A DNA stretch of 64,000 nt, taken from the sequence record OR062525; one strand, written 5' to 3'. Below the pieces are notes generated by a model. That model saw only the letters and a list, made by a program, of their open reading frames with translations. It had not been told where the DNA came from and did not search any database. This document shows, in pieces, positions 29,125 through 56,877 of this stretch. Position numbers and translations under genes: made by a program. Numbering within the stretch: position 1 is the first letter of the stretch; every line of letters begins with the position of its first letter. The stretch is from Escherichia phage vB_EcoM_10C2_SA_NWU.

Positions 29125-29430
29125 ATGGCTAAATCTAAAGTTGAACTGTTCACCTCTCTTCCTTCTGACACTGCAGAACGTGATCGCCTTCGCAAAACAA
29201 TCGAAGAGCTGGTGGAACTCCAGCTTCAGATTAAAGATCTGAAAGATGCCATCAAGGATATCATTCTTGTTGAGAAGCAGGATCATCTGTATTCTCCTAA
29301 ATTCATCAAATCTTTGGTGGCTACAGAGTTTGATATCCGCTACGAAGCTGAAAAACGTCGCGCTAAGATTGAAGAAGAGGTTGAGCACATGTCTGAGGCA
29401 GACATTCTGTTCAAACGCTCTGTAGAATAA
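29125..29430 (+). CDS. hypothetical coiled-coil protein
   Basis: AAGGAGA RBS; charged helical sequence. Confidence 0.4.
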   Translation: MAKSKVELFTSLPSDTAERDRLRKTIEELVELQLQIKDLKDAIKDIILVEKQDHLYSPKFIKSLVATEFDIRYEAEKRRAKIEEEVEHMSEADILFKRSVE

Positions 29431-29482: not shown

Positions 29483-29809
29483 ATGAGAATGCCAATCACT
29501 GTGAAAGAGCTAAATGAACGTGATGCAGGTGGTCTATGGCCTGCACGAAAAATCCGCTGCGTCTATATGAAAGAGAATCTTGAACATCTTGATCAACAGA
29601 TCAAGGTCGGTGATATTTTCGAGGTCTTCTACTCCAATCGTCGCAACTGGGAAACCATTCAGCCTTCTGGTTTTGTTCTTGCCAAACTTGACACTGGAGA
29701 AGTGATTATCCCTGGGTTGGATATTGTCTTCGAAATTATCCAGGAGTGGGATCCGGATAAGATTAGATACGAAGAATTATTCGGTAAAGGTATTATCAAA
29801 CCTGTGTGA
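29483..29809 (+). CDS. hypothetical protein
   Basis: start moved downstream of terminator hairpin to ATG with AAGGA RBS. Confidence 0.4.
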   Translation: MRMPITVKELNERDAGGLWPARKIRCVYMKENLEHLDQQIKVGDIFEVFYSNRRNWETIQPSGFVLAKLDTGEVIIPGLDIVFEIIQEWDPDKIRYEELFGKGIIKPV

Positions 29810-30117
29810 GGTGGATTATGTCTACAAAGGCGGCTAAATACTCCTATATGCCATCAACCTCTGCAGAGGTAGACTTTAGTTTCGATGTATTTCCACTGTT
29901 TGAGGTGGTTCTGGCATACCCTACAATACTATCCACTCCTGAATCACTTGTGCCTGTTAAGTTGCAGAACGCTATGCATTCCATGCACTACAACAATAAA
30001 TGTAGGCACAGATGGTGTCAGGACGAGGAAAAAGATTTGGATAGTTTGAGGGATTTTGACAGTCACCTTTTGACACCTTTCAGCTACTCCAACCTTGATA
30101 AGCCCTCATGGGTATAG
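29806..30117 (+). CDS. hypothetical protein
   Basis: ATGA coupling. Confidence 0.4.
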   Translation: MRWIMSTKAAKYSYMPSTSAEVDFSFDVFPLFEVVLAYPTILSTPESLVPVKLQNAMHSMHYNNKCRHRWCQDEEKDLDSLRDFDSHLLTPFSYSNLDKPSWV

Positions 30118-30142
30118 CAAAATATCAAATTTAAGACACCTA

Positions 30143-30170
30143 GGACGCTCTGTGGCGTCCTTTTCTTTAT
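30143..30170 (+). terminator. rho-independent terminator
   Basis: GGACGC-TCTGTG-GCGTCC hairpin followed by TTTTCTTTAT. Confidence 0.6.
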
Positions 30171-30810
30171 CTGGTGCACGATTGCATACCTTGGACAGAT
30201 AATCTCATTACAGAGCGTTTAAGAGCTTCCTACAAACAACTCCATATTTCGAGCGTAGCGAGAACGCACGTCCGTTTTGACCCAAATCACCATACGCTCG
30301 GATTTTAACCAAACCCTCGCGGCGTTTCTGTTGACACATTGCCGCTCCAGTGATAGTATCCACACATCGTTTGGAGAATATGGGATACACAATGAAAACA
30401 TTGTCAGAGGTTTTGGTGGTGATTCTGATGATCATTACGTCCATAGTGGCTGTTGCCGGAATACTCACGGGTGGAATATGATAAACACACATGCATCTGA
30501 AGAGACATCCAAAGGAGTGACTATATGTCCCTTGGCTGAGCCAGTGAAAGAGGAAAACTTCGATTCTGAAGATTCTCCATCTTCGCTCCAGGTAGATCCT
30601 GAGGCTGATGACCTAACGTGGGAAGACATCGTAGATATCTGGTTCTCTATTATGCCTGAGCACGAAGAGTTCAGGGGTGGTAGACTATGAAGCACCGAGC
30701 CCACACAGGTTCCTCATGCTAAAGCATGGCCTGAAGAGGCAAACGTGCATAATTCCAGTGCATTGGAACATATAAACCCTGTTCACATTCTCATTTCCAG
30801 AGGAGATTTC

Positions 30811-31026
30811 ATGAAGATAGAAATATTTGGTGGAGCTGACAACACTCGTGGCCTGATTTACCTTGAATTCGATGAATCATACCTGCCAGAGGTGTTAAAT
30901 ATAGACTCTGTTGCTGAGGCTTTGGGAGTAAGTCCTAAAGATCTCTACTCTGGTGCTGAGATTGATGGTTGGGAGGAGACCATGAACATTGATTTCAGTG
31001 AAGTAGGTGATGAACCACTGGACTGA
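30811..31026 (+). CDS. small acidic protein (MKIEIFGG N-terminus)
   Basis: GAGGAG RBS before ATG 30811; last + strand gene before noncoding region. Confidence 0.4.
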   Translation: MKIEIFGGADNTRGLIYLEFDESYLPEVLNIDSVAEALGVSPKDLYSGAEIDGWEETMNIDFSEVGDEPLD

Positions 31027-32536
31027 CACACAATTAGCTACCCGGCTAAAGTGCTGGGAGCACCTATAACACATCTTTCAACTAAATTTCCTACCACCAC
31101 AATCACTTACCTCCCACACATGACTGTTTGCTTGTTTAGTGAGCAGTCATGCCTTGACATTCTTGCCTATCCTGATAAAATTAAGTTCTTCTCTTTTCTT
31201 TTACCGAGTAATTCGGGTTTTCTGTTCTCTTCGGTTTGAAGGGGTATGGAGATACACCTGAGTGAACAGGGTGAACAACCGAACCATTGGCTATGGCATT
31301 AGCATGGCGAAGCGGACGGGTGACGAAAGAGGGGCCGGAGGACACCAGTCACTGCCATATGGTATATGGGTGATAACCTGAAGAGTCTGAATAAGTGTTT
31401 AAGTACCAGTCAGAGGAAAAGGTGAATGGTAGCCGAAGGGGGAGGGGGGTTTCTTGTATCTTTAATTTGTATATTATGTATACACTTGTAAACCAATATC
31501 ATCTGAATCTGTTTACCACACAAAGTGGATAGAGACAAATATCACCTATTAAACTTGAATTATTTATAGAAAATACCACAACACCGCTTAAGTCTTTGAT
31601 TTTACACACAAATCCTACAGATATTCACCCTCCATATTTAACATACTTGTAACATATTCCATACTCTACCTGTCTGATCAATTTCCCCAACTACATCCCC
31701 ATATTTTCCCTGTCTGTACTACCCCTGCCCCGCCGGGAGTCCCGTCATATCTGGCTTTCCAGCAAATATCACACCCACAAATATCATTGCCTGAAGAGGG
31801 TTTCATCCCATAATACCTGCCTTACCTGAAGAGCGCTTCATACACCACGTAAATTTTTTAATTGACCTCCCCCTGCCCCGCCGGAGAGGTTGGCTTTTCC
31901 CACACAGACCTGAAGAGTCAGCCAGAAATATCTGAATAGGCCCAATTCTACCACGATTTTGACCTGACCTACAGGGAGGCCCGAAGGGTCTAGCTTTCAG
32001 CTAGAGTCCTTGCAGGACCTACAGGAGCGCTGCCAGGCGGACGGAATGGGAATACTTCTCATTCTTATAACAATTCTCAAATATCGAGGCAGTGAGAGAA
32101 ATTAATAGGCCAGGCCGTTCACACAGTGGCACAACATTTGCAACCTATTTTGTGTGGATGAATGAGAATACCTATCATTGTGAGAACTGTTATCATTACG
32201 GGCAATTTAACATAATACCCATTATGCGCACCACTGGCGATACATACAGGGATTGATAACATGGGTTACTGTTTACGCACATAACAATTATATTTCTTAT
32301 TATTTGTGGGGGATATAGTTAGCAGCCGATAGATTAGATATTGACCTGCGGACTTCTGACCGTCTAGACGTCTAAACGCCCACACAGCAAGGGTTATACA
32401 TACATCACTGAATGTAAACAGGACTGCAAAAATGCTACCATACAAGCTTGTAAATTTTTCATGTAGCACTTGACAAAGAGGAGAAAAACTTGTCTGACAT
32501 AATGGTGACACAATATGACATAATTGACATGCCTGA

Positions 32537-32632
32537 CTGTTTACGCTATTACTATTCACGCTCTTACTGTTTACATGCTTAATGGTTTACATGACCAATA
32601 GTTTACATAGCTAACTATTTACATTGAAATGA
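32537..32632. repeat. tandem array of about 16-bp imperfect direct repeats (core GTTTACAT)
   Basis: GTTTAC/ATTTAC at 32569, 32585, 32601, 32617 with exact 16-bp spacing, plus copy at 32539. Confidence 0.6.
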
Positions 32633-32663
32633 TAAGCCATGACATTCGTTTGCATGAAAACAA

Positions 32664-32693
32664 TTAACAAGTTAACAATTAACAAGTTAATAA
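32664..32693. repeat. tandem 8-bp repeats TTAACAAG/TTAACAAT (about 4 copies)
   Basis: TTAACAAGTTAACAATTAACAAGTTAATAA. Confidence 0.6.
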
Positions 32694-32698
32694 TCTAT

Positions 32699-32850
32699 GA
32701 CATAATATAAAAGCAGGGCAACTATTAGAAGATCTATAGTTGCCTTGCTTGTTATGTCATGATTAACTAAATACAAGGCAACTATGATCTGATTAATAGT
32801 TTGCAGACAAACTATCACGGGGGTGATGGTTACTGCTTTTATATTATGTC
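32699..32850. repeat. perfect 18-bp inverted repeat pair flanking GGCAACTAT palindromic sites
   Basis: GACATAATATAAAAGCAG (32699-32716) and reverse complement CTGCTTTTATATTATGTC (32833-32850); GGCAACTAT/ATAGTTGCC copies between. Confidence 0.6.
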
Positions 32851-33546
32851 GCGACTCCGTCGCGCCATGCCATTCGTTTGCATAGTTGCCTTATTGTTAC
32901 AGGTAAAATAATTACATTATTAATTATTTCTTATCTTTCTCTTAGTCATCTAATGATTCCAGTCAGTATAGTAATGTACAGTAAACATTAGACGACTAAA
33001 GATTTCTCTGTTTATGATAACTCATCGTGATAATTTCGGACTGTTTACGAAAAATGTTGACACCTGAGCTGATTTATGTTATGCAGTTTACACGAATAAT
33101 TATTTTATGCAGGTATTGACTATTCCGTTATTCTGTGGTTGGAATAAATACTTTGCAGGCTATAGAATGGCGTGCGTACGTGAATTCTGAGATCTGGCGG
33201 CTATAGTTATACTCGATTTTTCGCGTAGAACACGCTTTCGATGCTGTGTAAGTGTATGACTTATAAAGATTTTTAGTTGTTGACAAGATATTGGATATGT
33301 GCATCAGGTTAAAATTTGTGCAATAGCGGCATTACGTGCACTTTTGGGAGAGAAAACGGGTAAAAATGGACTTGCTACCACACAATGAAAAATTATGCAA
33401 TAGTTATTTTCCATGTATATTTGTACAGTGTGTGGGATTGATGGCTAGTCAATTATTCCACTTACCAGGCTGGGCCGTTTGTGGTAGGAGAAATACAGAC
33501 AAAAAGAAAGGGGCCTTTTAAAGCCCCTGATAGTTTAGTTAAGAAA

Positions 33547-33966
33547 TTATAATGATTCGTATATTTCATAGATTCGATTTGCCAGGTCGTTACGGTAGCG
33601 GAATTTTTCCTCACGTTTGATCATAAGATCTTTATAGCCGTACTCTTTAAGCACTTCATTAACTTTATGGCGGCATACTTTCATATTATCCTGCGCGTCA
33701 CCAATAAATCTGTTGCTATGGTGCATGGCTTTAATTTCTTCTTCCAGGACCAGGGCAACTATGCGGACCGGATCAAGCTGATAGGCGGTAACATCAATGC
33801 GGCATTGTAAACGGCTTTTTACGTCTGCCACCGGATATACTGCAACCTCTTCCCCGTCAACATTGACAATAATTAGTTTACCATCGATTTCGAATCCTTT
33901 CGCCGCCGGACCGTGACAAAAAGCGTTATCAAAGCTATATGCCGGATTATTAGATTTAATGTTCAT
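33547..33966 (-). CDS. hypothetical protein
   Basis: first gene of - strand array. Confidence 0.45.
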   Translation of the reverse strand: MNIKSNNPAYSFDNAFCHGPAAKGFEIDGKLIIVNVDGEEVAVYPVADVKSRLQCRIDVTAYQLDPVRIVALVLEEEIKAMHHSNRFIGDAQDNMKVCRHKVNEVLKEYGYKDLMIKREEKFRYRNDLANRIYEIYESL

Positions 33967-34109: not shown

Positions 34110-34373
34110 TTATTTGTTGCTCATCCAGTTTTCCCAAGCTGCCTGATAATCTGCCTCACTACGGCGGATCTCTTCTTGTTCTTCAAGTCGGATCTCTTCT
34201 TCCAGGTATCCCAGGATATCGGCTTTTTTGGTCTGGCGTAACATCCAATCATCTTTTTTACGGGTAAAGATCTTATATGCTTTCTCGCAAACCTCTTTTT
34301 TGCTACCTTTTTGGACTTCAAGAACTTTGTAGGCCATGTACTGAACTAGTTTAAGCTGATCAAGACGTTTCAT
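34110..34373 (-). CDS. hypothetical charged protein
   Basis: co-directional ORF. Confidence 0.4.
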   Translation of the reverse strand: MKRLDQLKLVQYMAYKVLEVQKGSKKEVCEKAYKIFTRKKDDWMLRQTKKADILGYLEEEIRLEEQEEIRRSEADYQAAWENWMSNK

Positions 34374-37174: not shown

Positions 37175-37229
37175 GATGATTTGCCTCTCTTTATTTTCAT
37201 AATTGGGGGCCTTTTCGGCCCCGCCAGGT

Positions 37230-44216: not shown

Positions 44217-44410
44217 TTTTGTACCTCCTCTTCAATTGTTACCTATCCTATAGCATAGGCCCACCAGGTTTGCAAGCCTTCATTATCTCCTACCTGGTCA
44301 GTTAGGCCCTGCCAGGCTGGCCCCGCCAGGTTGCAGCGGTCAGCGCATCAGGTTAGAATTTTTTTTTTTTGAAAAGTGTTGACAGCGGCCCCGCCAGGTG
44401 GCACAATATA

Positions 44411-54180: not shown

Positions 54181-54447
54181 TAGTTCAGGTAGGTCGTTAA
54201 GCTACCCCGCACCATTACGTGCATAGCCATACGTTTTCACGTAGGATCGGACCATCTCATATTCCTATGATAAGCAACCACAGGAATCCTCCCATTTAGA
54301 CCGCACTTGCTGGTCTACTTCCTTTCGGAATGGCCTCTGAGCGTTCGCTCTTTTGAGCGCTTCGTTGCGGATTACCTTGCCATAAGGTTTAGGCTTCCCG
54401 CAGTTAAAGAGGTTATTCGACATAGATTACTCTATGAAGCCACAATG

Positions 54448-56877
54448 TTATTTATGGTAATAAATAATACGACGAACACCTTCATCGTACCACCCACGCT
54501 TCACCATCTGGTGGTGCATGAGTATTCCAACTAAGTCACACAACGATGCACCGCCATTTTGTTGGTATGCATTAAGTAAAGAGTGTTTAGATCGGGTCCA
54601 GATAGCATGACCATCAAAAGAGTAGATAAACTTCTTACCTGTTGCTTCCCAGAATTTCTCCAGATCCTCTTTGCGCCCCTTAAGACCTGGGTTGGCATCC
54701 CAGAGTGCATCGATTACCCTTTGTCCCAACTCTGGGGAGATGTCCAGCATATCTGCAACTTTATCTTTTTGTGCCCCGTACATAACCCCATACGTGATAG
54801 GTTTACCGTCGTTACGGGACACCTCTCTGCCTGCCACTTTTGTATATGCCTCAGCATTGTTTTGGTGTGCGTCTCCGTTACTTACAACATCATAATACAA
54901 GCCGTTGTCGAACTCAAAGGCACCCCAAGCCCCGATAAGCTGCTCTAAGTTGGACCCGTCAATACCGATCTCAAAGTATCCCGGAGGAACACCCCACAGA
55001 CTACGCATCTCTTTACCCATAACCACTTTAGGAGATGGTTTAGGCATGTTTGCACAAATACTGTGTTTCTGTCTGGAAGTGTTTGTTAATCCAGAGCTTT
55101 TAGCAGGAAGCTTATGGTCAATCTTCAAACGTGGGTGATTAAGAAGACCAGTATCAACCTTATCCTCCTTGATTGGATCAAGGACCGATCTGCGGTTTCG
55201 CAATGATAACCACAAGACGATATCTTTAGCCATCTCTCCGTTCAATTTTTCAAGATTTGGGCATAGGTGTCCAAACGTATCTTTCAGTTGCGGAGAAGTA
55301 ATAAGTGCCCTGGCTTTTCTACGTATTTTCCCGAATACTTCCTTTTTAATCCTTTCGGAGTTAGGAAAGCTTCGGAACTTGTGCACGGTTGTCTGGAACT
55401 TAGCATCAGTTTTGTTCCAGAAGTTGATAATTAGGTCACAATACTCTGACTCCAAAAGCTCGTCCATATATGCATATACTCGTGCATCAACATCTGCATC
55501 AGGTAAAGCTTTCTTCTTGCTGTCTTTAGTTACATCTTTAGTTCTCCACATTGTTGGTAACCATCCGGCCCCGATAAGGTATCTTTTGATATCATCCTGA
55601 TTACTTATCTTCATAGGAACACGGCAGTCTGGCATTCTCTTCTGCCGCAAATCCTGCATTGCTTGCCGCATCAGGTTTTCTGGAAGAGGTTGTGGTTTAG
55701 CAGACCCTTGCAAGTAGCCACGTAAAAACTCAGGCATCATTTCTGGGTCACTGCACCCCATTTCAATACACCACTTAGCGCCAATTTTGCTAACATCCCC
55801 AGATGTTGTAAATGCCCGTTTTGGAGGCTCTTTGAACTCAAGGGCTTCCATATCAACAGGGTAACCAAGCTTATCTTTTAACCACTTCCAGCCGTTGTTT
55901 GAAATCGTACCATCCTGGTTAAAAGGTTTCTCTGGGAATTTCGGTCTTTGTGATTGAGACAGCTCTTTTAGCGGCAACTGAGGCTCCACACGATCCGCGA
56001 TCTCTTTCATCCAAGCATCACAACGATCTCTGAGCGCCAACGCACCATCTATGTCGAAATATACCCCTTGTCGGGCCTGCAATTCCATTAAAAAATGTTG
56101 CAGCATCCCTCTACGTAGTGCATTTTTCCAGTTAATCTTTTTAAAGCCGTGTGGTTTCTCTTTCTCTGGATCATACATAAAGTTCTGCATGTCAGATTTA
56201 CCATAAAACACACCTTTAGCCTCTGCTGTCAGTTCCTTCCATAGAAGTTCTTGAATGATAACGTCTTCAAATACACGATCAACATACTTCCACAGAGGTA
56301 AATTTCTCCAGTCATCAATTTTAACCTTCTGGTTTCCTAAAGCGTACCCCCACGCCATTAGGCCATGAGGACCTACCTGCTGCATACGTTTTGTAACAGG
56401 ATTGTATACAGAATCAGGGCATCCTTTAGGTAACGGTCTGTCGGGCCATAGTATACGACTCATTGGCAGAGTGTCGAACAGGTTCACCTGATGATTATTG
56501 ATTGTCCCCATACACTTGGGATCACGGAACATATCAAAATGAATACCAGACAGCTTCTCCATCAAGATAAAGTCATAACTAAAACAGTTGTGACAACTTA
56601 ATGATGTGGGTGACCAATCGGAGTTCCCGGTTAACCACCATTCAAGCTGGCTGAAATCCGCAATACGGACAGAGCAGCTAGGATAGATATCTTGCTTTGC
56701 CAGCATAAATTGTTTTGCTTTTTCAACCTCCTCTTCACTGTAATGAGATCTATCATTGATAGGCAAAAACAACATAAAATTATTTTTATTCAACTCTTTA
56801 AACAGGCCACAATGGTAGTAAAGATCTTCCTCGTCCAGAAGACCTGAGGCCTCAAAGTCAAAATTCCACATACTCAT
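54448..56877 (-). CDS. family A DNA polymerase with N-terminal 3'-5' exonuclease domain
   Basis: Exo I FDFEASG, Exo II HNCFSYDF; motif A-like GIDGSNLEQL, motif B-like RNDGKPITYGVMYG, motif C variant WYDEG; AAGGAGAA RBS. Confidence 0.6.
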   Translation of the reverse strand: MSMWNFDFEASGLLDEEDLYYHCGLFKELNKNNFMLFLPINDRSHYSEEEVEKAKQFMLAKQDIYPSCSVRIADFSQLEWWLTGNSDWSPTSLSCHNCFSYDFILMEKLSGIHFDMFRDPKCMGTINNHQVNLFDTLPMSRILWPDRPLPKGCPDSVYNPVTKRMQQVGPHGLMAWGYALGNQKVKIDDWRNLPLWKYVDRVFEDVIIQELLWKELTAEAKGVFYGKSDMQNFMYDPEKEKPHGFKKINWKNALRRGMLQHFLMELQARQGVYFDIDGALALRDRCDAWMKEIADRVEPQLPLKELSQSQRPKFPEKPFNQDGTISNNGWKWLKDKLGYPVDMEALEFKEPPKRAFTTSGDVSKIGAKWCIEMGCSDPEMMPEFLRGYLQGSAKPQPLPENLMRQAMQDLRQKRMPDCRVPMKISNQDDIKRYLIGAGWLPTMWRTKDVTKDSKKKALPDADVDARVYAYMDELLESEYCDLIINFWNKTDAKFQTTVHKFRSFPNSERIKKEVFGKIRRKARALITSPQLKDTFGHLCPNLEKLNGEMAKDIVLWLSLRNRRSVLDPIKEDKVDTGLLNHPRLKIDHKLPAKSSGLTNTSRQKHSICANMPKPSPKVVMGKEMRSLWGVPPGYFEIGIDGSNLEQLIGAWGAFEFDNGLYYDVVSNGDAHQNNAEAYTKVAGREVSRNDGKPITYGVMYGAQKDKVADMLDISPELGQRVIDALWDANPGLKGRKEDLEKFWEATGKKFIYSFDGHAIWTRSKHSLLNAYQQNGGASLCDLVGILMHHQMVKRGWYDEGVRRIIYYHK

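What the first reader, a model, noticed from the sequence alone, without database searches (positions are those of the whole stretch)
31260..32060. GC-rich short repeats in an otherwise AT-rich intergenic stretch (possible structured ncRNA)
The 15-mer CCCCTGCCCCGCCGG occurs twice (31722-31736 and 31870-31884), CCTGAAGAG four times (about 31378, 31790, 31817, 31909) and GACCTACAGG twice, next to purine-rich stretches (GCCGAAGGGGGAGGGGGG at about 31432). A consensus promoter (TTGACA-N16-TAAAAT at about 31155-31182) points into the region. The related motif GGCCCCGCCAGG recurs at about 37215 and 44315/44388.
Basis: seen in the sequence. Interest (0 to 1): 0.45.

Follow-up and report, generated by a model that had tools for sequence, protein, structure and literature searches.

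The report
Packaging-signal repeats beside phage terminal repeat
The repeats are real, but they sit in the non-coding DNA just before the point where this rV5-like phage cuts its genome for packaging. They look like conserved DNA signals around that cut site, not like a folded RNA gene.

Summary
The window is an rV5-like E. coli phage (Vequintavirus), 100% identical to phage nimi over 31100-32100. The finding lies in a 2.5-kb ORF-free gap (31027-33546) between convergent gene blocks.

Records of close relatives with determined ends place the 459-bp direct terminal repeat (DTR) at 32036-32494. So 31260-32035 is the unique DNA just upstream of the left cut (32035|32036).

The repeats are real and non-random. 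CCTGAAGAG (x4), AAATATC (x5) and the C-run CCCCTGCCCCGCCGG (x2) all lie on one strand. Related versions recur in the same order before the DTR in six Vequintavirinae lineages that share no other DNA similarity there:
- the cut motif is GCTGCCA|GGC or GTGYTA|GAC;
- AAATATC lies 43-44 bp inside the repeat in all nine phages examined;
- a sigma70-type promoter points at the cut in six of eight phages scanned.

GACCTACAGG x2 merely flanks a strain-specific 50-bp insertion.

Structured-RNA tests failed: no Rfam match, fold z-scores near zero, no covariation. One caveat: the 265 nt after the promoter (31186-31450) are 99.3% conserved and genus-specific, and may be a non-coding transcript.

Best reading: a T7-like concatemer-junction packaging module. 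The location is firm; the function is inferred.

The parts
31154..31181 (+). Sigma70-type promoter TTGACA-N16-TAAAAT with a TG extension, pointing towards the terminal repeat. It starts 882 bp upstream of the left cut.
   Evidence: 11/12 match. Hexamers invariant in 12 relatives; one spacer position (31167) varies in one genome. -35 and -10 are kept in the most divergent relative L024 while its spacer changes. Similarly placed promoters occur in KPP-1, PVP-SE1, 4MG, GAP31 and SalP219.
31186..31450 (+). Ultra-conserved, G-rich, genus-specific non-coding block that starts at the predicted transcription start. Candidate non-coding transcript or leader. It contains the first CCTGAAGAG (31377).
   Evidence: 31080-31450 is 99.3% identical in 12 genomes, against 95.5% for the coding flank. 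At least 97.9% identical in about 117 phage records. In L024 there are 6 substitutions in 265 nt here, against 14 plus an indel in the 106 nt upstream. GC skew reaches +0.5. No homologue outside the genus (nhmmer). Substitutions show no third-codon-position bias in the ORF frames (my tally from the positions).
31438..31456 (+). GGGGGAGGGGGG followed by TTTCTTG, at the 3' edge of the ultra-conserved block. Possible hairpin-less (G-quadruplex-type) stop or R-loop element. Its function is inferred only.
   Evidence: invariant except for one extra G in one genome. The sequence becomes variable and AT-rich immediately downstream (31451-31535, 81% identity). A similar GGGGGAGGGGGAGGGGG lies just inside the repeat of A73, and GGGGGTGGGGAGGGG in PBES 02.
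31536..31935 (+). Pre-repeat motif array, C-rich and G-poor, made of two tandem modules. Module 1: C-run 31719-31744; AAATATC at 31764 and 31779; CCTGAAGAG at 31790 and 31825. Module 2: C-run 31867-31893; CCTGAAGAG at 31909; AAATATC at 31926. A further AAATATC lies at 31537.
   Evidence: All copies are on the + strand and none on the - strand; no dinucleotide shuffle reaches the observed counts. The same motifs in the same order occur in KPP-1, PVP-SE1, 4MG, GAP31, SalP219, A73, pEa_SNUABM_55 and PBES 02. GC skew falls to -0.78.
31966..32025 (+). Strain-specific 50-bp insertion bounded by the two GACCTACAGG copies, holding three short hairpin-forming palindromes. It lies within a hypervariable indel hotspot (31931-32035).
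   Evidence: Alignment: rV5, Murica, FV3, WM and EdH4 have a single GACCTACAGG and no insert, and others carry a different insert. Mean identity 55%.
32029..32044 (+). Left terminus cut site GCTGCCA|GGCGGACGG. The cut falls between 32035 and 32036.
   Evidence: The Gotham and EdH4 records start at 32036. The bov11CS3, bov25_3 and bov10K2 records end at 32035. The same motif sits at the PhageTerm-determined end of PBES 02 (GCTGCCA|GGCATGG; PMC5557969). The related GTGCTA|GACGGACAG sits at the KPP-1 repeat start (PMC9862379), and the KP12 record starts there too.
32036..32494 (.). Direct terminal repeat (459 bp). It appears once in this circularly assembled or concatemer-form sequence and is duplicated at both ends of virion DNA. 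AAATATC at 32079 lies 43 bp in.
   Evidence: Gotham repeat_region 1-459 and 136567-137025, the two copies identical. Reported as 459 bp (PMC7471380) and 458 bp (PMC6563267). 94.8% identity in 12 genomes. AAATATC at +43 or +44 in all nine phages examined.
32470..32494 (+). Conserved TTGACAAAGAGGAG... element that ends at the right terminus cut (32494|32495).
   Evidence: The Gotham and EdH4 records end at 32494. The right end lies 24-25 nt after the start of TTGACA(A/C)RGAG in the window, KPP-1 and PBES 02.

Best explanation
The finding covers the non-coding DNA that, in replicating concatemers, lies just upstream of the left cut of a 459-bp direct terminal repeat (DTR, 32036-32494). In the virion it is the last unique sequence before the right-hand repeat copy.

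The CCTGAAGAG, AAATATC and C-run (CCCCTGCCCCGCCGG) repeats form a one-strand array, duplicated into two tandem modules. I propose that, together with the cut motif GCTGCCA|GGC and an AAATATC 43 bp inside the repeat, this array is the recognition and positioning signal for the phage terminase. That would make it a pac- or cosB-like array at a T7-type concatemer junction.

A conserved host-type promoter (31154-31181) transcribes towards the junction. It may help open or mark the site, as transcription does in T7. It first crosses an ultra-conserved 265-nt non-coding block of unknown role.

Shown:
- the location relative to the termini;
- the non-randomness, strand bias and cross-genus positional conservation of the motifs;
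- the lack of RNA-structure signal.

Inferred:
- that terminase, or a partner protein, binds these motifs;
- that transcription contributes.
For: Location:
- Two relatives whose ends were determined from sequencing reads start at window 32036 and end at 32494, with identical 459-bp end copies in Gotham (PMC7471380, PMC6563267).
- Three further records end at 32035.

Motifs:
- YCTRAAG occurs 4 times and AAATATC 5 times, all on the + strand and none on the - strand. Shuffle means are 0.22 and 0.07, and no shuffle reaches the observed counts.
- Six lineages with no overall DNA similarity in the spacer carry C-run, then YCTRAAG/AAATATC, then the cut motif, then AAATATC at +43 or +44. They are Vequintavirus, A73, Mydovirus KPP-1, Seunavirus PVP-SE1/4MG/GAP31/SalP219, Henunavirus pEa_SNUABM_55 and Certrevirus PBES 02.
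- Ends in KPP-1 (PMC9862379) and PBES 02 (PMC5557969) were determined independently and fall on the same motifs.
- The repeated unit has lineage-specific variants: CCTGAAGAG here, CCTGAAGTG/CCTAAAGAG in PVP-SE1, TTGYCCACAGAGT x6 in A73. Sites that co-evolve with a cognate binding protein would behave this way.

Other features:
- The right cut lies 24-25 nt after a conserved TTGACA(A/C)RGAG element in three lineages.
- A promoter points at the cut in 6 of 8 phages scanned.
- Sequence just outside both repeat boundaries is hypervariable, while the motifs and the repeat are kept.

Precedent:
- Terminal repeats are made at fixed recognised positions (PMC5557969).
- In T7 the RNA polymerase pauses at the concatemer junction and engages the terminase proteins gp18 and gp19 (PMC3276506, citing Zhang and Studier 2004).
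Against: - No binding, cleavage or packaging data exist for any of these motifs. Function is inferred only from position and conservation.
- One-strand motifs would equally suit signals read in the + strand transcript.
- The second 15-mer copy is not conserved within the genus. Most relatives have CCTCCCCGCCGCCGG there.
- One CCTGAAGAG (31377) lies 659 bp from the cut, inside the ultra-conserved block.
- CCTGAAGAG also occurs five times elsewhere in the window.
- In Seunavirus and Mydovirus one GACCTGAAGAGTCAGCC copy lies in a promoter spacer, so some copies may be promoter parts rather than terminase sites.
- The ends of this particular phage (nimi-like) were not determined. They are transferred from relatives about 95% identical.
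- The terminase family was not examined.
Confidence: 0.55

Rival explanations
1. A functional non-coding RNA is transcribed from the 31154 promoter. The 265-nt block 31186-31450, ending at GGGGGAGGGGGG-TTTCTTG, would be a discrete small RNA. The downstream repeats would be RNA motifs or part of a longer structured transcript.
For: - A near-consensus promoter with invariant hexamers.
- Conservation rises sharply at the predicted transcription start. In the most divergent relative there are 6 changes in 265 nt downstream against 14 plus an indel in the 106 nt upstream.
- The block is more conserved than the neighbouring genes, 99.3% against 95.5%.
- Substitutions show no codon-position pattern (my tally).
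- One compensatory change, 31284 C>U with 31315 G>A, falls in a helix predicted from the window sequence alone.
- All motifs lie on the transcribed strand.
Against: - No Rfam match even at E<=10.
- Fold z-scores of -0.77 and -0.13 are not distinguishable from shuffles.
- Changes at 31285 (4 of 12 genomes) and 31304 break the same helix that shows the compensatory pair.
- The consensus fold of 31690-31945 has a covariation term of +0.4 and 1 of 58 pairs compensatory.
- There is no canonical terminator.
- The block has no homologue in other genera, whereas the downstream motifs do. So the block and the repeats are separable elements.
Confidence: 0.2
2. A transcription-primed replication origin. 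The promoter drives a G-rich transcript that forms a stable RNA-DNA hybrid (R-loop) ending at the G-run, next to an AT-rich unwinding region (31450-31650). T7, T4 and ColE1 origins work this way.
For: - The layout is promoter, then 260 nt with GC skew up to +0.5, then a G5AG6 run, then a stretch of GC 0.28-0.32.
- The rV5 origin is unknown, and skew analysis there only tracked gene orientation (PMC3606486).
Against: - The case rests purely on composition.
- The AT-rich segment 31451-31535 is the least conserved part (81%).
- The block is absent from other genera that share the rest of the junction.
- No repeated initiator sites or DnaA boxes were identified here.
Confidence: 0.1
3. A transcription insulator at the end of the long + strand operon. 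The C-rich, G-poor stretch 31550-31900 would act as a Rho loading site, and the C-run or G-run elements as pause or stop signals. These would keep transcription out of the terminal repeat.
For: - GC skew falls to -0.78 over about 300 nt on the transcribed strand.
- No intrinsic terminator was found between the last + strand gene and the repeat. The rV5 authors expected terminators between genes 163 and 164 and found none.
- The - strand unit has its own terminator at 33528-33509.
Against: - It does not explain the fixed +43 AAATATC inside the repeat, the conserved cut motifs, or a promoter placed downstream of the last gene and aimed at the repeat.
- Rho sites do not need discrete conserved 7-9-mers.
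Confidence: 0.1
4. Chance or neutral duplications in unconstrained spacer DNA, with no function.
For: The GACCTACAGG pair only bounds a strain-specific 50-bp insertion, and the second 15-mer copy is allele-specific.
Against: The motif counts exceed every shuffle, the strand bias is complete, and order and position are conserved across six lineages that otherwise lack similarity here.
Confidence: 0.05

Closest known systems
Bacteriophage T7/T3 concatemer junction: short exact terminal repeat, flanking short-repeat arrays, and a promoter reading into the junction
   Same: - Short exact direct terminal repeat with fixed, sequence-specific ends, present once per junction.
- Arrays of short repeats in the unique DNA next to the repeat.
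- A promoter upstream of the right-end repeat copy that transcribes into the junction.
- KPP-1 was classed as T7-type by PhageTerm (PMC9862379).
- T7 RNA polymerase pausing at the junction recruits gp18 and gp19 (PMC3276506).
   Different: - These are about 137-kb myoviruses, not T7-like podoviruses.
- The repeat is 443-514 bp, against 160-231 bp.
- The promoter is of the host sigma70 type, and no phage RNA polymerase is known.
- The motif sequences are unrelated.
- The T7 flanking arrays (SRL/SRR) and the hairpin intermediate are recalled from Dunn and Studier 1983 and Chung, Nardone and Hinkle 1990. I did not check them here.
Terminase recognition sites built from repeated motifs: lambda cosB R-sites, P1 pac hexamers, SPP1 pacL/pacR boxes
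   Same: Several copies of a short motif are clustered next to the cut. Spacing to the cut is conserved, and the motif variant is lineage-specific.
   Different: - Those phages make cohesive ends or headful cuts, not exact terminal repeats.
- Small-subunit binding is shown for them and only inferred here.
- All copies here share one orientation.
- This comparison rests on my knowledge of those systems, not on a tool result.
Vequintavirus 458-459-bp terminal redundancy and the rV5 'non-coding' box
   Same: The same locus. The repeat length and the existence of an ORF-free region are already published (PMC6563267, PMC7471380, PMC3606486).
   Different: In the passages read, those papers report only the repeat length or the absence of ORFs. 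None describes the cut-site motif, the +43 AAATATC, the motif arrays, the promoter or the cross-genus conservation. My literature searches found no such description.

Membership tests
Short direct-terminal-repeat (T7-type) genome ends | Identical short repeat at both physical ends of virion DNA | tested here: met
   In Gotham, record positions 1-459 equal 136567-137025 exactly, and both map to window 32036-32494. Published as 459 and 458 bp (PMC7471380, PMC6563267). Shown for relatives about 95% identical, not for this isolate.
Short direct-terminal-repeat (T7-type) genome ends | Fixed, sequence-specific ends shared by relatives (not permuted) | tested here: met
   Gotham and EdH4 start at 32036, and three bov records end at 32035. 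The ends of KPP-1 with KP12, and of PBES 02, fall on the homologous motifs. [quoted passage not shown]
Short direct-terminal-repeat (T7-type) genome ends | Terminase large subunit groups with those of other terminal-repeat phages | not tested
   The terminase genes were not located or compared.
Terminase recognition (pac/cosB-like) site | Cluster of repeated short motifs next to the cut, beyond chance | tested here: met
   YCTRAAG x4 and AAATATC x5 on one strand, within 660 bp upstream to 43 bp downstream of the cut. No shuffle reaches these counts.
Terminase recognition (pac/cosB-like) site | Motifs keep their order and position relative to the cut in diverged relatives | tested here: met
   Nine phages from six lineages. 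AAATATC at +43 or +44 in all, and invariant cut-site and AAATATC columns in the eight-way alignment A2.
Terminase recognition (pac/cosB-like) site | Bound by the small terminase subunit and required for packaging | not testable with these tools
   Needs gel-shift or footprinting assays and a plasmid-transduction or deletion assay.
Structured non-coding RNA | Match to a curated RNA family | tested here: not met
   At gathering threshold Rfam finds only a group I intron at 54228-54463. Nothing matches 31000-32100 even at E<=10. No tRNA or tmRNA.
Structured non-coding RNA | Folding energy better than shuffled sequence | tested here: not met
   z = -0.77 and -0.18 for 31186-31465 (+ and - strand). 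z = -0.13 and -0.32 for 31690-32060.
Structured non-coding RNA | Base pairs kept by compensatory changes | tested here: inconclusive
   For 31690-31945, 1 of 58 pairs is compensatory and the covariation term is +0.4. For 31186-31460, one compensatory pair (31284/31315), but changes at 31285 and 31304 break the same helix. There is too little variation to decide for the ultra-conserved block.
Structured non-coding RNA | Own promoter and a defined 3' end; transcript detected | tested here: inconclusive
   The promoter is present and conserved. The only terminator-like site is a weak hairpin at 31204-31216, about 20 nt after the predicted start. The G-run plus T-run at 31438-31456 is not a canonical terminator. 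No transcript data were found.

The most novel reading that the evidence does not exclude
Vequintavirinae use a transcription-coupled packaging start that depends on the host RNA polymerase. A conserved sigma70 promoter would fire into the concatemer junction. The transcript or R-loop, including the ultra-conserved 265-nt G-rich block ending in a G5AG6 run, together with the AAATATC, YCTRAAG and C-run array, would mark the site where terminase makes the staggered cuts that create the 459-bp repeat. This would be a T7-like mechanism rebuilt without a phage polymerase. It would also give the first defined pac site for large myoviruses with short terminal repeats.
Probability: 0.12. Interest if true: 0.65.

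Novelty: new member of a known kind. Interest (0 to 1): 0.4.

Why it matters
Vequintaviruses are common therapy and biocontrol phages, yet their packaging signals are undefined.

The cut motifs, the +43 AAATATC and the upstream arrays form a compact, testable candidate pac region. If confirmed, it would allow:
- consistent placement of genome ends in more than 100 deposited records, which are now opened arbitrarily;
- design of packageable plasmids and engineered phages;
- a direct test of how terminal repeats are generated outside the T7 group.

This result also removes a false ncRNA lead for the repeats. It singles out a narrower candidate, 31186-31450, for transcript mapping.

Tried and rejected
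1. Anchoring on the DsbA-like 101-aa protein (29125-29430) to find the equivalent region in other genera. Synteny is not kept in Seunavirus or Mydovirus, so three fetched loci (L014-L016) were uninformative.
2. Anchoring on the 87-aa protein (34110-34373). It reached only A73 and A5-4 outside the genus. The same-length first genes of KPP-1 are not homologous.
3. DNA search with 31100-32100 in 'distant' mode. It found only Vequintavirus, so there is no overall similarity beyond the genus.
4. Exact 18-mer scans of IMG/VR and JGI metagenomes to gain diversity for covariation. They gave only 2 and 4 true relatives among mostly chance hits. One, L024 (identical to L109 over the 391-nt block), is usefully divergent.
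5. Small ORFs in 31139-31381, on both strands. Rejected as genes: the substitutions show no third-position bias, and relatives annotate them inconsistently.
6. The C-run as a conserved hairpin. Each lineage can form a 4-7-bp stem, but the DNA energies (-2.9 to -7.5 kcal/mol) are mostly no better than shuffles, so the hairpin is not claimed.
8. Enrichment of GGA (CsrA-sponge) motifs in the G-rich block. By eye there are about 6 in 260 nt, roughly what the composition predicts. Dropped.

Full report
**Context.** The window is an rV5-like E. coli myovirus of the genus Vequintavirus.
- 121 phage records match 31000-33600 at 90-99% identity. Phage nimi is 100% identical over 31100-32100.
- The finding lies in a 2.5-kb ORF-poor gap, 31027-33546. 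The + strand genes end at 31026, and the first - strand gene ends at 33547.
- The rV5 genome paper drew this region as a 'non-coding' box and found no terminators between genes 163 and 164 (PMC3606486).

- The 15-mer occurs twice, CCTGAAGAG four times in the region (31377, 31790, 31825, 31909), and GACCTACAGG twice. All are far above shuffle expectation.
- The promoter is at 31154-31181 and matches 11 of 12 consensus positions with a TG extension.

**The key fact is position.**
- Many relatives' records open or close inside this region.
- Gotham carries an annotated 459-bp repeat at both ends, and the two copies are identical. EdH4 has a published 458-bp terminal redundancy (PMC6563267).
- Both records start at window 32036 and end at 32494. 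Three bov records end at 32035.
- So 32036-32494 is the direct terminal repeat, present once in this circular-form assembly. The stretch 31260-32035 is the unique DNA just upstream of the left cut.

**Conservation within the genus** (12 genomes).

| Segment | Mean identity | Note |
|---|---|---|
| Coding flank 29630-31026 | 95.5% | baseline |
| 31080-31450 | 99.3% | includes the promoter |
| 31451-31535 | 81% | AT-rich |
| 31536-31930 | 95% | motif array |
| 31931-32035 | 55% | indel hotspot |
| 32036-32494 | 95% | terminal repeat |
| 32495-32700 | 69% | variable again |

- The second GACCTACAGG copy and the 50 bp before it form an insertion. It is absent from rV5, Murica, FV3, WM and EdH4.
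- The second 15-mer copy is allele-specific. Most relatives read CCTCCCCGCCGCCGG there.
- The first 15-mer copy is nearly invariant (substitutions in three genomes). The four CCTGAAGAG sites are kept, with single substitutions in one genome each at 31825 and 31909. The AAATATC sites are invariant except one substitution in EdH4.

**Conservation across genera.** The spacer has no overall DNA similarity outside the genus. I located the equivalent junction in five other lineages:
- Mydovirus KPP-1, repeat at 116316-116829 by coverage and PhageTerm (PMC9862379). The KP12 record starts exactly there.
- Seunavirus PVP-SE1, 4MG, GAP31 and SalP219.
- The unclassified phage A73.
- Henunavirus pEa_SNUABM_55.
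- Certrevirus PBES 02, repeat at 200-642 by PhageTerm (PMC5557969).

All share the same order on the same strand:
1. A C-run element: ACCCACCCCTCCCCCGCCCGGAGGG in Seunavirus, against CTACCCCTGCCCCGCCGGGAG and CTCCCCCTGCCCCGCCGGAGAGG here.
2. YCTRAAG and AAATATC units. For example, 4MG has AAAATATCCTGAAGAGG and the window has AAATATCATTGCCTGAAGAGG.
3. The cut motif: GCTGCCA|GGC in Vequintavirus, A73 and PBES 02, or GTGYTA|GAC in Mydo-, Seuna- and Henunavirus.
4. AAATATC 43 or 44 bp inside the repeat, in all nine phages.

Further points:
- Every copy lies on the + strand and none on the - strand. Counts mostly exceed all of 500 shuffles.
- The eight-way alignment has invariant cut-site and AAATATC columns.
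- The repeated unit varies by lineage. A73 has TTGYCCACAGAGT six times, and PVP-SE1 has six CCTGAAGTG or CCTAAAGAG copies.
- The window, like SalP219, carries two tandem modules.
- The right cut lies 24-25 nt after the start of a conserved TTGACA(A/C)RGAG element in all three lineages with experimentally determined ends.
- A sigma70-type promoter points at the left cut from 321-882 bp upstream in six of eight phages scanned.
- Window 31903-31935 is a degenerate homologue of the Seunavirus and Mydovirus promoter, whose spacer holds GACCTGAAGAGTCAGCC.

**RNA tests.**
- Rfam gives nothing in 31000-32100, even at E<=10. There are no tRNAs.
- Fold z-scores lie between -0.13 and -0.77 on both strands.
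- The consensus fold of 31690-31945 has a covariation term of +0.4 and one compensatory pair out of 58.
- So the GC-rich repeats are not supported as a structured RNA.

**The promoter-proximal block 31186-31450 is a separate matter.**
- It is genus-specific (nhmmer) and more conserved than the flanking genes.
- In the most divergent relative (IMG/VR contig L024) it has 6 changes in 265 nt. The 106 nt upstream of the predicted start have 14 changes plus an indel.
- One compensatory pair (31284/31315) is offset by changes at 31285 and 31304 that break the same helix.
- It ends in GGGGGAGGGGGG-TTTCTTG (31438-31456), followed by AT-rich variable sequence. GC skew is +0.5 across the block and down to -0.78 across 31550-31900.
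- It may be a non-coding transcript, a leader or an R-loop element. I cannot decide which.

**Mechanism proposed.**
- Terminal repeats arise at fixed recognised positions by extension from staggered nicks (PMC5557969).
- In T7 the RNA polymerase pauses at the concatemer junction and engages terminase (PMC3276506).
- By analogy, the motif array, the cut motif and the +43 site would be the terminase recognition and positioning signal for the left cut. The TTGACA element would mark the right cut, and promoter-driven transcription into the junction may assist.
- Location and conservation are shown. Binding and requirement are inferred.
- Confidence is about 0.9 that this is the junction-proximal packaging region, and about 0.5 that the motifs are terminase signals.

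**Novelty and score.** The repeat length and the ORF-free box are published. I found no description of the conserved junction anatomy. It is a new member of a known kind, of moderate interest (0.4).

Noticed in passing
window 54228-54463 (- strand): Group I catalytic intron. Rfam RF00028, 64.7 bits against a gathering score of 50, full-length model match. Presumably it interrupts a - strand gene.
   Followed up: no
window 37217-37228, 44305-44330, 44387-44398: GGCCCCGCCAGG(T) recurs three times exactly and once with one mismatch: 11 matches at up to 2 mismatches against 1.8 expected. One copy is the 3' arm of a terminator-like hairpin (GGGGCCTTTTCGGCCCC). Another sits between a TTGACA and a CACAAT/ACAATA -10-like hexamer. 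It may be an operator-like site. It resembles the finding's 15-mer only loosely.
   Followed up: partly
window 32495-33100 (just after the terminal repeat): A dense repeat field: GTTTACAT three times at 16-bp spacing (32569-32624); GACTGTTTACG three times; a perfect 18-bp inverted repeat (32699-32716 and 32833-32850) with nested ATAGTTGCC inverted repeats; GC 0.26-0.33. The equivalent region of Seunavirus and Mydovirus holds several strong TTGACA promoters aimed into - strand genes, plus (G)ACAGTTTAC motifs. Possible origin, operators or early promoters.
   Followed up: partly
window 31931-32035 and 32495-32700: The sequence just outside both repeat boundaries is hypervariable within the genus (55% and 69% identity, with indels). 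The repeat itself and the motif array are about 95% conserved.
   Followed up: partly
window 31438-31456; A73 locus L018 (reverse complement); PBES 02 locus L142: A G5-A-G5/6 run recurs near the terminus in several lineages, on the + strand here and just inside the repeat in A73 and PBES 02. The C-run motif gives GGGCGGGGGAGGGGTGGG on the - strand of Seunavirus, a textbook quadruplex pattern. From memory, GAAGGGGGAGGGGGGTTT resembles the human mitochondrial CSB II element that stops transcription and primes replication. I did not check this.
   Followed up: no
phage records MG0656xx: Nineteen 'Campylobacter phage' records match this E. coli phage region at 87-98% identity. The one opened (A147) is marked UNVERIFIED and has no annotation. 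They are probably mislabelled or contaminant vequintaviruses.
   Followed up: no
window 31204-31216: A small hairpin, CCGAGTAATTCGG, followed by GTTTTCTGTT, only about 20 nt after the predicted transcription start. It is terminator-like or attenuator-like and invariant in relatives.
   Followed up: no
window 31186-31203 and 31433-31449: A pyrimidine run (TTCTTCTCTTTTCTTTT) at the predicted 5' end and a purine run at the 3' end of the conserved block pair in the minimum-energy fold through many G-U pairs. Both are essentially invariant (one extra G in one genome), so this cannot be tested by covariation.
   Followed up: partly
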